The position numbers and the translations under genes are program-made. The notes beneath the pieces are model-generated. The model had not been told where the DNA came from and made no database searches. It worked only from the letters and a program-made list of their open reading frames with translations. From assembly GCF_006345805.1 (NCBI RefSeq), contig NC_043004.1:66774001-66838000 (forward strand): a DNA stretch of 64,000 nt, given 5' to 3'. This stretch comes from Octopus sinensis. Taxonomy: Eukaryota. Positions within the stretch are counted from its first letter, which is position 1, and the number at the start of each line of letters is the position of its first letter. Shown piece after piece: positions 51 through 24,202 of the stretch.

Positions 51-215
51 CGACGGGCATCTTTCAGTTTTCCGTCGACCAAATCCACTCACAAGGCTTT
101 GGTCGACCCGAGGCTAAAGTAGAAGACACTTGCCCAAGGTGTCACGCAGTGAGACTGAACGCGGAACCATGTGGTTGGTAAGCAAGCTACTTACCACACA
201 CCCACTCCTACGCCT
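51..215 (-). mobile_element. tRNA-derived SINE family A, 5' half
   Basis: Reverse complement of the head at 2155-2320 (TGTGTGGTAAGTAGCTTGCTTACCAACCACATGGTTCC...CCTTGGGCAAGTGTCTTC); abuts a (TA)n tract. Confidence 0.85.
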
Positions 216-396
216 ACACGCACGTACATTGTTAATATCTCGCCAAAATATACTTTGAGAACAAAACCGCTGTCCAACAACTATACATCACAGCAGTGTT
301 GCCATTACTGAGGTACCACAGAAGAAATTCACGTCAGTATAGTAATGTAGAGACGGCAGCAGAATCAAAAACTAACAGCGAGAACAACAGACATAG

Positions 397-2370: not shown

Positions 2371-2377
2371 TATAATA

Positions 2378-2800
2378 TGTATATTGGCAGGGCTGGCCTG
2401 CTAGGTAGCCGCCAGAATGCTAGAAGAAGATCATCAACGATCAAACTACAAGGGAAGATATTTCAAATTTTATTCCCGATGTAATCAGTAAGACTAAGCA
2501 CGTGTCTGTCTTGACACAAGAAGCTGGGGTTAGTCTTCCAGTTTGCATCTCGAGGACCGAATGTACTGATGAAGTCACGGACACTTGAATTATGCAAGTA
2601 ATTCTTTTGTTAAGACCGAAACCGAGGTATGCATTTAAGTCTGTTTTTTATTTAATTTTTCATATGTTCCTGCCGCCAAATTTGGTTCTGGTGTTCGCTG
2701 AATTCTTCCTCTAGAGAATTTCCCTTGTAGTTTGATCGTTGATGATCTTCTTCTAGGCATTCTGGCCGGCTACCTAGCAGGCCAGCCCTGCCAATATACA
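2378..2800 (+). mobile_element. Fold-back non-autonomous element (~80-bp inverted arms) enclosing a hammerhead; probably Penelope-like (PLE) derived
   Basis: Arms 2378-2456 and 2720-2800 are near-perfect reverse complements; begins at a (TA)n tract. Confidence 0.75.
2559..2636 (+). ncRNA. Type I hammerhead ribozyme
   Basis: AATGTA-CTGATGA-aGTC...GACc-GAAACC-GA-GGTA-TGCATT: stems I, II and III all pair; predicted cut after GUA (2629). Confidence 0.85.
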
Positions 2801-2897
2801 CATATATTGAATTTCCTCTGACTCCTCAGATTTTTTGAATGCTGGACTACTGGTTTAAAATTTATTTAAAATTAATATTAATTTATCTCCCTCAATT

Positions 2898-4011
2898 TTT
2901 TATTTTTAATTCTCTCGCAGGAAGGCCCATTGGATGAGTGTTCTGTATGCCTTCAAACTGCCTGACTCCTCTAGCGACAGCTGATGACGGGGGTTTTGTC
3001 CTTGTGTAACCTGTCGGTATTTGGTTTTCGTTTTCCGTTTTCTTGTTTTTGTTTTTTTCTGTTTCTACGTCTTATTGTGATGTCCTGTACTTCCGTATAA
3101 TTATTTTATATATGCATGTATATATACATGTAATGTAGGTACGTACATATATGTTTGTATGTATGCATATATTTTTATTTATCTCCTTATTGTCTGACAG
3201 CGCCCGCGCATCAGGTTCGTTCCGATTCGTCGTTTCGATCCACTTCTTGGTCCCTTTTTTTATATTAATATTATTATATTGAAGATGCGGTACTCTCTCC
3301 CTTTGCTTTAACCTCTTCAATCTTTCTCCCTCCCCCTCCTCCTCTCTCTTCGCGCGTGTCCCCCTCCTCCTTCCCTCTTCCTTGCCTATAAAACAAATTC
3401 CTTTACACGTGGTTACCACTATTGAAAAGACTGCCTCCACGCGCTGCTACTACACTTTCGTCCTTGCCAGCAAAAGGCTTCTTCGTTCGTCCCCTTGTGT
3501 GGTTAATTTCCTGTATAGTATCCTTGTTATTTTCTCGTTTTGTAACTAATTGTACTTTTTGTACATGTATTTTATTTTTGCAGTTTTATTGTTTGTCTAT
3601 GCCAGAAAAAGGCTTTTTTCGTTCGTCCTCTTGTGTTTGTTTTTGTACATGTATTTTAATTTTGCAGTCTTATTGTTACGTCTTGTTTGTGTTCGTACTC
3701 ATTGTGCCCGCTGCTTGAAATTTTATTTTAATTCTCTCGCAGGAAGGCCTATTGGATTAGTGTTCTGTTTATGCCTTCGAACATGCCTGACTCCTCTAGC
3801 GACAGCTGATGACGGGGGTTTGTCCTTGTGTAACCTGTCCTGTATTTGGTTTTCGTTTTCCGTTTTCTTGTTTTGTTGTTTTTTCTGTTTCTACGTCTTA
3901 TTGTGATGTCCTGTACTTCCGTATAATTATTTATTATGCATGTATATATACATGTAGATGTAGTACGTACATATATGTTTGTATGTATGCATATATTTTT
4001 ATTTATCTCCT
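2898..4011 (+). mobile_element. LTR-retrozyme-like unit: two ~290-bp direct repeats (2898-3187, 3721-4011) around a ~530-bp non-coding core
   Basis: The repeats align throughout and each contains GACAG-CTGATGA; no credible ORF; ends in (TA)n. Confidence 0.7.
3760..3818 (+). ncRNA. Candidate non-circularly permuted hammerhead (sister copy at 2938-2993)
   Basis: Order GTGT-T-CTGTT / CCTTC-GAA-CAT / GACAG-CTGATGA-cGGGGG; stems I and II pair, but one A of GAAA is missing. Confidence 0.4.
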
Positions 4012-4088
4012 ATATATTAATATATATATATATATAATATATATATATATATATAGATTGATAGATTACATACACACATATATATGTA

Positions 4089-4134
<46 letters not shown>

Positions 4135-11041: not shown

Positions 11042-11075
<34 letters not shown>

Positions 11076-11224
11076 TAATAAAAAGAATTCCAACCTTGTC
11101 TGATTTTCACGTTTTATTTACAATCTTATAATGATATATTATAAGATAATATTATAATTGAATCATGTAGTAGTGTTGACAGTCATGCTTCACAATTTTG
11201 ACTGTAGCAAGATGATTGATTCTG

Positions 11225-11345
11225 TGCTATAAATACAGCTGGGTAGGCTCCAGAGTGCTAGGTTTTGCAAACTGTATTCTGACCAATCAGTGTGTAGTAT
11301 CACTCAATTACTTAAGCTGATTGGTTGGTTGAGCTGATTGGTTTA
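11225..11345 (-). promoter_or_regulatory. Candidate pLTR promoter (CCAAT boxes + TATA-like)
   Basis: Minus strand has two CCAATCAGC boxes and an inverted CCAAT followed by TATTTATAG, downstream of the PLE ORF. Confidence 0.35.
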
Positions 11346-11668
11346 GGCATCACGCTTTGTTGGACATGTCAAGAGTCCTGTATCTTGACCCTGGCCGAAG
11401 CAGCAATTGTTGGGTTATTTAGAAATGTTGTAAATATCCTTTGTCAGAGATTTTTATATTTTTTATTTCAATTGTCATCATCATCATTGTCAGCACCTTA
11501 ATTATTGTTGCTAGTGGTGATGGTGGTGGCAATAGAACTTTTAACCCTAAATAAGATAATTTTCCTGCTATCTTCGTCTTGATCACCTTTAGTATTGTTG
11601 TTGTTGTTAGTGGTCATGGTCGTAGCAGTGGAAGTAATACCTCTAAGTATTATTATTATTATTATTGC

Positions 11669-12768
11669 TTATTTAGCTGGGTTCGAATTTATCAATAAAA
11701 TTCTTTTCTCTGATTTTCCTCTCGATTTCACTTGGGCTGTGTAATTGTAGAATGGAAATATTATATATATTTTCCGACCACATGTTGCTAGGTGGTTACT
11801 CAAAGGTATCTGACGGACCTCTGGGTCTCTAATCTGTTGCCGGTGTACACGTGAGCGTTCTAATAGTGCGTTCCCGTCTGACCTACATATATTTCTTCAC
11901 AATTTGGCATTTGATGCAGTAAATTAAATTTCTGCTTTTGCAGTTCATATTCGCGTTTGTGAATATTTTCCCGGTTTTTGTGTTTATATATTGACCGGTA
12001 TGTATGAATTGGCATGTGCCACATCGGCTATCATTGCATTTAGATACCGTGAATGTTTGGTCTTTGTTGCTGAGGTCAAATTTTGCCTTTGTTAGTAATG
12101 TTTTCAAGTTTTTAGGCTGTCTTTTACTAAGCACCATAGCTCGATCCGTGATTATGTCTTTTAATTCATTACTTTGGGCAATGATTGGTAGGTTTGCTTT
12201 GGCAATGTTGAAGATATTCTGGTGACATGGGTTGTGTGTCACTATGAATGGTATGACTTGTTCTTGTTTTCCTCTTCCTTGGTTGTCCTAAGTTGTTGTA
12301 TAGGTATTTTTATAGCCCGCTGTATGCCATTTTCTATAAGTAGAGATGGGTATTTTTGTTTGAGCAAAAATTCTCTTAGTTCTATTAGGCGCGTTTGTTC
12401 CTGATATTTGCATCTTCTACAATAGTACAAATTCTTCTGGCTAGGCAGTATGGGATGTTACGTTTTGTATGTGGTGGATGGCACGACTTAAAATTTAGGT
12501 ATTGATGTGTGTCTGTGTGTTTATAGTATATATCTGTGGTGATGGTGGTGTCTTTTTTAATTACCATTATATCCAGGAATGGTAATTTGGTACTACTCAT
12601 CTCCTTTGTAAATTGGAGAGATGGGTGTAGGTTGTTCAGGAGGATATTGAACTCTCCAGAGTATTTAGAGATTCTGTCCAGATTATGAAACAGTCGTCTA
12701 GGTATCTCTTCCATGCCTTTTCAATATACTTTCTAAACCCAGTGCCATAGTTTACCTCCACCTCTTGG

Positions 12769-12770
<2 letters not shown>
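11669..12770 (-). pseudogene. PLE reverse transcriptase thumb + Cys linker + GIY-YIG endonuclease, frameshifted
   Basis: LNNLHPSLQFT, LPFLDIMV, TDIYYKHTDTHQYLNFKSCHP, QPKNLKTLL, KCNDSRCGTC, NLIYCIKC, YVGQTG, HRQQIRDP, FIDKFEP spread over several frames. Confidence 0.9.
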
Positions 12771-23883: not shown

Positions 23884-24202
23884 GTAAACAGTAAAATAAT
23901 TACAGACATGGACAAGAACATGAACACCACAAGAGACGACACAAGAACCACAGGACGGGCATTCAAGCCCTCATTCATCAGTCAAGAACCAGATCATCTT
24001 AGCAATTTCGGCTGATTAATCTTGAGATTGCTCCGATATGGCCAGCCGCCAAGGGAATCTAAGCCAAGCGCATTAGATCCCCTGGAGAAAGCTTCGAATG
24101 TATATCAACGAAAGGACGGAAAACGATCGAAGTACACAAACAAAATACAGAATACGTGACCACCAATAAGAATACAAAAACGTAAAAACATAACGGTAAA
24201 AA
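23881..24202 (-). mobile_element. (TA)n-embedded non-coding element with a permuted hammerhead; truncated sister at 33469-33545
   Basis: Bounded by TA tracts; GCATTAGATCCCCTGGAGAAAGC..CGAATGTATA...AAGGACGGAAAA recurs at 33474. Confidence 0.7.
23971..24032 (-). ncRNA. Candidate non-circularly permuted hammerhead
   Basis: AGCAAT-C-TCAAGA / ttaatcagcc-GAA-ATTGCT / TCTTGA-CTGATGA: perfect 6-bp stems I and III in exact register with intact core; stem II weak. Confidence 0.6.

What the first reader, a model, noticed from the sequence alone, without database searches (positions are those of the whole stretch)
2898..4011. LTR-retrozyme-like unit: two ribozyme-bearing direct repeats ~822 nt apart
Two ~290-bp direct repeats flank a non-coding core, and each repeat has a CUGAUGA core at the same position. 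This is the architecture of retrozymes, where cleavage in both repeats releases a monomer that circularises. The predicted monomer here is about 822 nt (2943-3764). A tandem pLTR arrangement of a PLE is an equally compatible reading.
Basis: partly seen in the sequence, partly recalled or inferred. Interest (0 to 1): 0.75.

Follow-up and report, generated by a model that had tools for sequence, protein, structure and literature searches.

The report
Knotted split-core hammerhead retrozyme family
This stretch is a damaged copy of a small non-coding jumping element, present in hundreds of near-identical copies in this animal genome, whose repeat unit carries all the parts of a self-cutting hammerhead RNA in a scrambled order that is predicted to fold as a knot and likely cuts the RNA into unit-length pieces for copying; cutting has not been tested.

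Summary
The two ~290-bp repeats and both CTGATGA motifs are real, but they are not LTRs. The locus is 1.33 units of an 838-nt head-to-tail element (374 exact motif hits in the genome) with a fixed 3' end, scattered 5' ends, occasional 5' inversions and (TA)n targets: Penelope-like, non-autonomous. The ribozyme is not type I or III. Its blocks run cleavage site, GAAA, CUGAUGA (the non-circular 'SGC' order). Unlike published SGC hammerheads, the 5' strand of stem II lies upstream of the cut, and A9 is rejoined to G10.1 through two extra helices. Stems I and III and both extra helices show compensatory changes across 70%-identical relatives; three other families keep the order with different stems. 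5' ends of insertions pile up just 3' of the predicted cut (21 of 96). Cleavage, circles and the partner enzyme are untested. I found no paper on this fold; the scan had already noted it on other DNA, including this genome.

The parts
2898..4011 (+). Family A insertion: 1.33 units of an 838-nt head-to-tail non-coding element, 5' end at unit position 1-2, 3' end at the family's fixed position 301
2898..3187 (+). First repeat (unit 1-301); terminal redundancy, not an LTR
3721..4011 (+). Second repeat (unit 1-301), followed by (TA)n
2917..2992 (+). Ribozyme copy 1, damaged: stem II 5' strand 2921-2926, GTT triplet 2940-2942 (predicted cut after 2942), stem I 2943-2946 with 2977-2980, CTGATGA 2981-2987; G12 missing; upstream strands of helices X and Y lost by 5' truncation
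   Evidence: sequence; model
3707..3817 (+). Ribozyme copy 2, one core A missing: X5' 3707-3710, Y 3711-3714 with 3739-3742, stem II 3743-3748 with 3773-3778, stem III 3760-3762 with 3782-3784, GTT 3762-3764 (predicted cut after 3764), stem I 3765-3769 with 3801-3805, GAA 3779-3781, CTGATGA 3806-3812, X3' 3813-3817
   Evidence: sequence
3813..3845 (+). Conserved competing hairpin and a second GTC-CTGT that can pair with the stem I strand; candidate inactive conformer
3897..4011 (+). 3'-terminal segment, about 90-93% identical in subfamilies that are about 71% identical elsewhere; includes an AT-rich hairpin; candidate reverse-transcriptase recognition site (inferred)
   Evidence: (unit 177-296)
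3387..3393 (+). TATA-like motif in the core; possible internal promoter (untested)
2376..2897 (+). Family B element (546-nt tandem unit, inverted 5' part) joined to family A at a T-run with no (TA)n between them
2559..2636 (+). Canonical-order type I hammerhead of family B with a long stem II (CTGATGA 2566, GAAA 2618, GTA ending 2629, 7-bp stem I)
4012..4130 (.). (TA)n target microsatellite 3' of the insertion; (TA)n also at about 2325-2375, 5' of the B+A composite

Best explanation
This is a 5'-truncated, damaged copy of an 838-nt non-coding tandem retroelement with Penelope-like insertion structure, whose unit carries the hammerhead core letters in the order cleavage site, GAAA, CUGAUGA, predicted to fold as a knotted split-core hammerhead that likely cuts multimeric transcripts into monomers. 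Shown: the tandem family, fixed 3' end, variable 5' ends, (TA)n targets, conserved core letters, complementary and covarying helices. Inferred steps: (1) arrays are transcribed; (2) five helices form: stems I, II, III, with the 5' strand of stem II upstream of the cut, plus helices X and Y that bring A9 back to G10.1; (3) the RNA cuts after GUH; (4) monomers would close into circles; (5) a Penelope-type reverse transcriptase likely starts at the fixed internal site (unit 301), primed in (TA)n, and copies 0.3 to more than 3 units, falling off at random or at a cleaved 5' end. This locus itself would probably not release a monomer, because both cores are damaged.
For: Architecture. Core: in 130 aligned relatives G16.2 121, U16.1 126, H17 not G 127, though this block was in no search pattern used to collect the divergent relatives. 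Stem I pairs 1-5 are 94-98% paired with C-G/U-A swaps (slid controls 25-52%); stem III pairs 1-3 93-96%. Of 6716 column pairs, 7 were Watson-Crick in 85% or more with two pair types; 3 are stem I, 1 is stem III. On 44 representatives: 90.4% paired, 59 double-change cells, 0 of 500 shuffles as high. Upstream stem II: 92-98% paired at each of 5 positions, G10.1-C11.1 in 120 of 130. Helix X innermost pair T-A 86, G-C 35 (family A); helix Y CTGC/GCAG, CCGC/GCGG, CTAC/GTAG; 87% and 92% paired in 144 sequences. Families D, E, F keep the order with other stems; after CTGATGA, E has CCCC and F has TGTC, which cannot form stem II. G..C pattern 2528 hits against 0 control. 5' ends: 21 of 96 lie 1-14 nt upstream of G12 (cut at 13-14), 18 in the next 96 nt past a 16-nt bin, p about 8e-9. 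348 exact copies with intact GUU..GAAA; 46 of 56 family A motif instances have all three blocks.
Against: No cleavage or RNA end was observed. Family A has a GUU triplet and a 3-bp stem III with one G-U (recalled: GUU is a weaker site). Stem II is nearly invariant inside the main family, so it covaries only between families. A rival downstream pairing is also conserved (82.9% paired, 18 of 500 shuffles), and nested folding prefers it over stem I and helix X (that program cannot form knots). Mutual information alone is dominated by ancestry: the stem I pairs rank only 4th and 5th. Relatives are subfamilies, not independent samples. A flush X/Y junction was found automatically in 3 of 3 A, 6 of 7 relatives, 3 of 4 F, but 2 of 7 D and 0 of 5 E loci. 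The 5'-end pile-up could partly reflect TA microhomology or stalling at structure; in family A only 2 of about 22 insertions start in that window. No autonomous element sharing the 3' end was found. In a Penelope element tested in vitro, hammerhead cleavage was not needed for insertion (PMC11167929, passages).
Confidence: 0.7

Rival explanations
1. The fold is a real conserved structure descended from a hammerhead but is catalytically dead or dispensable in family A; it serves as a binding or pausing signal, and multi-unit copies come from uncleaved multimeric transcripts.
For: GUU site and short stem III; copies run through the cut site for 3 or more units; conserved competing hairpin; cleavage was dispensable in vitro for another Penelope element (PMC11167929, passages).
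Against: Core letters conserved while N7 varies (T 91, A 39); H17 avoids G (3 of 130); the same core recurs in four families with different stems; 5' ends stop at the predicted cut.
Confidence: 0.17
2. It is a regular type-SGC hammerhead: stem II is the G-rich strand right after CUGAUGA pairing with CCUUC, and the upstream helix is only a switch.
For: That pairing is possible in the main family (G-C, G-U, G-U, G-C; 84-99% at 4 positions with one inserted base).
Against: Half G-U, no double changes (helix 1); at most 28% paired in family D with 0-2 inserted bases; impossible in E and F; the same G-rich strand covaries with the upstream X strand.
Confidence: 0.07
3. It is a minimal type I hammerhead with GUAA in place of GAAA, or a type GCS form, cutting at the downstream GUC (after 3839).
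For: Local fold gives stem I and a hairpin around CUGAUGA; downstream GTC is conserved.
Against: GTAA in only 10 of 132 (GTAG 30, GTTG 26, ATTG 19); rival stem I 81-93% with A-C at the first pair in 19 sequences; third stem III pair 11%; 18 double-change cells against 59.
Confidence: 0.03
4. It is an LTR retrozyme with two true LTRs and a type III hammerhead, mobilised by a Gypsy element.
For: Repeat length about 290 bp and 0.82-kb spacing resemble plant retrozymes (PMC4918200, passages).
Against: Variable 5' ends, arrays of 3 or more units, 5' inversions, (TA)n flanks, no PBS/PPT, no type III core.
Confidence: 0.02

Closest known systems
Type-SGC non-circularly permuted hammerhead ribozymes (HRIMA-1; Eckert et al. 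2023, PMC10085705; read parts 1, 3, 4, 5 of 8 and passages)
   Same: Order cleavage site, GAAA, CUGAnGA; knotted stems I and III; short linker from stem I to stem II; all core letters.
   Different: Stem II 5' strand lies upstream of the cut rather than after A9; block C, assumed there to be uninterruptible, is split and rejoined by helices X and Y; found in an animal genome in thousands of retroelement copies, whereas that paper found no such RNA in genomes of known organisms apart from one bacterial GCS candidate; untested here.
Non-LTR retrozymes of animals (Cervera and de la Pena 2020, PMC7229834, passages; Li et al. 2026, 10.64898/2026.07.22.740005, part 1 of 5)
   Same: Non-coding head-to-tail units with a ribozyme in each; no LTR, PBS or PPT; proposed Penelope-derived and copied through circles.
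   Different: Unit is 838 nt, not 150-450; ribozyme is not type I; circular RNA not shown here.
Penelope-like elements and their non-autonomous partial tandems (Craig et al. 2021, PMC8557442, passages and supplement rows; Cervera 2014, PMC4209133, parts 1-2 of 4)
   Same: 5' truncation, partial tandems forming pseudo-LTRs, inverted 5' copies, (TA)n bias; Naiads lack a canonical hammerhead and some have 'half cores' on either side.
   Different: No ORF; no sequence match to the 3' ends of the Neptune-type elements sampled here; a link to Naiad was not tested.
Plant LTR retrozymes (Cervera et al. 2016, PMC4918200, passages)
   Same: Similar repeat length and monomer size by coincidence of truncation.
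   Different: No true LTRs, PBS, PPT or type III hammerhead; tandem arrays.

Membership tests
LTR retrozyme | Two LTRs of fixed length with defined ends | tested here: not met
   5' ends at unit positions 1-803; arrays of 0.3 to more than 3 units
LTR retrozyme | Type III hammerhead in each LTR | tested here: not met
   No type I or III descriptor hit on the doubled unit, either strand
LTR retrozyme | PBS after the 5' LTR and PPT before the 3' LTR | tested here: not met
   Read: 3188 onward has no TGG start; 3707-3720 is not a purine tract. No tRNA comparison was run.
LTR retrozyme | 4-bp target-site duplication | tested here: inconclusive
   Flanks are (TA)n, so a duplication cannot be read
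Non-LTR retrozyme (animal) | Non-coding head-to-tail units, ribozyme in each | tested here: met
Non-LTR retrozyme (animal) | Type I hammerhead | tested here: not met
Non-LTR retrozyme (animal) | Monomer of about 150-450 nt | tested here: not met
   838 nt
Non-LTR retrozyme (animal) | Linear and circular monomer RNA in vivo | not testable with these tools
   Only assembled contigs were available
Non-autonomous Penelope-like element | Fixed 3' end, 5' truncation, partial tandems, no poly(A) | tested here: met
   3' end at 301-304 in 26 of 26 visible and 297-304 in 26 of 30
Non-autonomous Penelope-like element | Inverted 5' copies and microsatellite targeting | tested here: met
   Inversions flagged in 2 of 30 loci and in several relatives; (TA)n flanks in most loci
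Non-autonomous Penelope-like element | 3' end shared with an autonomous partner | tested here: inconclusive
   No match to 30 Neptune N1 loci or 30 GIY-YIG loci; no N-terminal-endonuclease element among them; one direct Neptune-to-relative junction (L377)
Type-SGC hammerhead | Block order S, G, C with covarying stems I and III | tested here: met
Type-SGC hammerhead | All conserved core nucleotides | tested here: met
   46 of 56 family A instances, 348 exact S-G copies; not met in the two window copies
Type-SGC hammerhead | Stem II directly after CUGAnGA (0-2 inserted bases) | tested here: not met
   0 of 189 descriptor hits have 4 Watson-Crick pairs there; upstream strand pairs instead
Type-SGC hammerhead | Extra helix joining the far sides of stems I and II | not tested
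   No such helix stood out in the screen, but it was not tested as such
Type-SGC hammerhead | Site-specific self-cleavage | not testable with these tools
   Indirect only: 5'-end pile-up

The most novel reading that the evidence does not exclude
A seventh natural hammerhead topology: the knotted S-G-C order opened inside the catalytic block between A9 and G10.1 and braced by a two-helix junction. It is active, used in thousands of copies by both Penelope-type non-autonomous elements and restriction-endonuclease-type non-LTR elements in an animal genome, and gives this family an 838-nt self-processed circular RNA that is reverse-transcribed rolling-circle fashion from a fixed internal start.
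Probability: 0.5. Interest if true: 0.88.

Novelty: new variant of a known kind. Interest (0 to 1): 0.78.

Why it matters
The hammerhead is thought to exist in six possible strand orders, with non-circular ones known only from environmental sequence. A form with the catalytic block itself interrupted would extend that rule and would have escaped every standard descriptor, so ribozyme counts in animal genomes may be large underestimates. It offers a testable answer to why some Penelope-like elements seem to lack a hammerhead yet form tandems. This family is young, short and non-coding, with hundreds of intact copies, so cleavage, circularisation and the circle-template model can be tested with one construct.

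Tried and rejected
Rfam at gathering and E-value thresholds: no ribozyme, only AT-rich miRNA-like noise. Type I with GUAA: looked plausible in family A, failed in relatives; a pattern for a GAAA-bearing type I relative gave 1 unrelated hit. Type GCS: rejected on covariation. Type II using the GUH between GAAA and CUGAUGA: no stem I hairpin (read). First tree-based pair screen was too permissive and was replaced. Mutual information with correction did not isolate the helices. Metagenome pattern scan: 15 hits, none fits the descriptor, they read as bacterial coding chance matches. Sequencing runs: no RNA holder listed on record; contigs of 869 and 846 nt carried the whole laid stretch, which fits a tandem or a circle and says nothing on expression or ends. 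Partner search: no similarity to Neptune N1 or other GIY-YIG loci; the Naiad link stays open because no Naiad sequence was searched. Pfam gave nothing for the Neptune fragment or the family E ORF end. Lunse et al. 2017 on Penelope hammerhead variants was not held; recalled only. Scripts stopped part-way; the missing parts were rerun. Literature searches listed no paper on this fold; subscription journals, bioRxiv supplements and the supplementary figures of Eckert et al. were not seen and could bear on novelty.

Full report
Observation. The repeats are real: 2898-3187 and 3721-4011 align end to end at 94%, each with CTGATGA (2981, 3806). Rfam finds no ribozyme in the window or in a cleaner copy. 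The genome G000 (2.7 Gb, animal; octopus-like by my recall of its repeats, named by no call) holds many copies: 1094 first-look candidates of which 40 were scored, and 374 exact hits of a 28-mer against 0 for the reversed control.

The repeats are not LTRs. The 30 loci show an 838-nt unit in head-to-tail arrays. The 3' end is at unit position 301-304 in 26 of 26 loci where it is visible (4 run off the locus; some loci are the same insertion); 5' ends fall anywhere from 1 to 803. A second sample of 30 loci gave 3' ends at 297-304 in 26, lengths from 0.3 to more than 3 units, and 2 flagged inversions. Flanks are mostly (TA)n. The window copy happens to be truncated at position 1-2, which makes a 290-bp redundancy. 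These are the features described for Penelope-like elements (PMC8557442, passages), and tandem units with ribozymes are the layout of animal non-LTR retrozymes (PMC7229834, passages; 10.64898/2026.07.22.740005, part 1 of 5), not of plant LTR retrozymes (PMC4918200, passages).

Finding the ribozyme. No type I or III hammerhead fits the unit: there is no GAAA after CUGAUGA; instead CCTTC-GAAA-CATG lies upstream. Relatives were collected by patterns and fetches; the GAAAC..CTGAWGAAGG order occurs 2528 times against 0 control. My first two models, a type I core with GUAA and a type GCS form using the downstream GUC, failed: GTAA is kept in 10 of 132 sequences and the downstream stems pair poorly. 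The cleavage block lies upstream of GAAA. Of 215 motif instances, 176 were unique, and 44 were dropped as truncated or low-complexity upstream, leaving 132 (mean identity 0.71). In the 130 with a letter at U16.1, G16.2 is kept in 121, U16.1 in 126, and H17 is G in only 3; N7 varies. Stem I pairs 1-5 are 94-98% paired with C-G/U-A swaps against 25-52% for slid controls; stem III pairs 1-3 are 93-96%. Of 6716 column pairs, 7 are Watson-Crick in 85% or more with two pair types; three are stem I and one stem III. On 44 representatives this model gives 90.4% paired and 59 double-change cells (0 of 500 shuffles), the rival 82.9% and 18 (18 of 500); the shuffle test ignores relatedness. Mutual information alone ranks the stem I pairs only 4th and 5th.

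Comparison with SGC. The order S-G-C is the non-circular permutation of Eckert et al. (PMC10085705; parts 1, 3, 4, 5 of 8 and passages), who assumed CUGAnGA stays attached to stem II and found no such RNA in genomes of known organisms apart from one bacterial GCS candidate. Here stem II is different. The strand after A9 gives only a G-U-rich pairing without double changes. An upstream strand, GAAGG, pairs with CCTTC at 92-98% per position with G10.1-C11.1. Family D (67 hits, 0 control) has other stems and an upstream GGCC strand (79% paired over six pairs; downstream at most 28% with 0-2 inserted bases). A generic pattern (13,447 hits against 1,784 control, overlaps counted) revealed families E and F with wholly different stems, followed by CCCC or TGTC after A9. 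A descriptor hit 28 of 30 A loci, 98 of 163 relative loci, 24 of 30 D and 18 of 30 generic loci, and 0 of 65 control loci; none of 189 hits has four Watson-Crick pairs after A9 (the upstream search range was wider, so the fixed-position counts are the fairer test).

Extra helices. After seeing earlier scan notes that mention a junction, I screened a longer alignment of 144 sequences. The top helices were stem II, stem I and a helix X between an upstream CCCC(T/G) and the bases directly after A9; a helix Y sits between X and G10.1. The innermost X pair is T-A in 86 and G-C in 35 (family A); Y occurs as CTGC/GCAG, CCGC/GCGG and CTAC/GTAG. A flush X/Y junction was found automatically in 3 of 3 A, 6 of 7 relative, 3 of 4 F, 2 of 7 D and 0 of 5 E loci; in E I can read X and Y only by eye. 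A kink-turn was not tested.

Footprint of cutting. Among the first 100 hits (99 loci, 3 left out for low similarity), 21 of 96 insertions begin 1-14 nt upstream of G12, where the cut is predicted at 13-14, against 18 in the 96 nt beyond a 16-nt bin (p about 8e-9). TA microhomology and stalling are confounders. In family A, 2 of about 22 insertions begin there.

This locus. Copy 1 lacks G12 and the upstream X/Y strands; copy 2 lacks one A of GAAA. The window copy differs from a clean unit mostly by deletions (20 deleted, 5 substituted in the first unit), so part of the damage may be assembly error. In the family, 46 of 56 instances keep all three blocks and 348 exact copies keep GUU through GAAA.

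Mechanism and partner. I infer transcription of arrays, self-cleavage to 838-nt monomers, closure to circles, and reverse transcription from the fixed internal site, as internal initiation was shown for another Penelope element (PMC11167929, passages, which also found cleavage dispensable in vitro). Uncleaved multimers would explain long copies equally well. The partner is unknown. Neptune-type elements with open frames of 775-781 aa and (TA)n ends exist but share no sequence with family A; one locus joins a Neptune 3' end directly to a relative (L377), and in the window family B, which has a canonical type I hammerhead, is joined directly to A; both fit template jumping or nested insertion. 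Naiads lack canonical hammerheads, some have half cores, and an octopus Naiad is listed with (TA)n preference, but I did not test that link. Families E and F lie behind ORF ends whose homologues carry reverse transcriptase PF00078; the HERO label for them is recalled and echoed by earlier notes. RNA evidence is absent: no holder on record as RNA, contigs only.

Novelty. Eight literature searches listed no description of this fold; 'type-SGC' returned only Eckert et al.. The scan had already noted the same split-core motif in other windows of this and other genomes; those are unchecked notes, not independent support. I reached the S-G-C order and the upstream stem II before reading them, and took the X/Y lead from them. 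Verdict: a real, young Penelope-type retrozyme family with a probable new hammerhead topology; this locus is a damaged member; not an LTR retrozyme.

Noticed in passing
   Followed up: partly
window 2893-2900: Family B runs directly into family A at a T-run, with (TA)n only outside the composite: possible template jump between two non-autonomous RNAs.
   Followed up: partly
window 23975-24050, minus strand: A family D copy with the permuted core in place; its first stem III pair is U-A instead of C-G, giving an AUC site.
   Followed up: partly
window about 11075-12770, minus strand: 5'-truncated Neptune-type Penelope element with frameshifts; it lacks the minimal hammerhead that fuller copies carry (CCGAAGA core, palindromic GTAC).
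   Followed up: partly
L296, L302, L304, L323, L324 and L297, L308, L318, L322: The same split-core hammerhead with different stems sits in the 3' UTR of two families of restriction-endonuclease-type non-LTR elements.
   Followed up: partly
L377 about 2680-2690 (minus strand reading): Neptune-type 3' end fused without microsatellite to a 5'-truncated relative of family A.
   Followed up: no
L363, L371, L372, L379, L384, 3' of the endonuclease: A second Neptune-type family shows no canonical or permuted hammerhead under my patterns.
   Followed up: no
window 69-216 and 2154-2301: Two inverted copies, 90% alike, of a short abundant SINE-like repeat.
   Followed up: no
window 3730-3742: Pyrimidine tract ending in CAG just before stem II resembles a splice acceptor, but the AG is not kept in all subfamilies and the bases serve helix Y.
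   Followed up: partly
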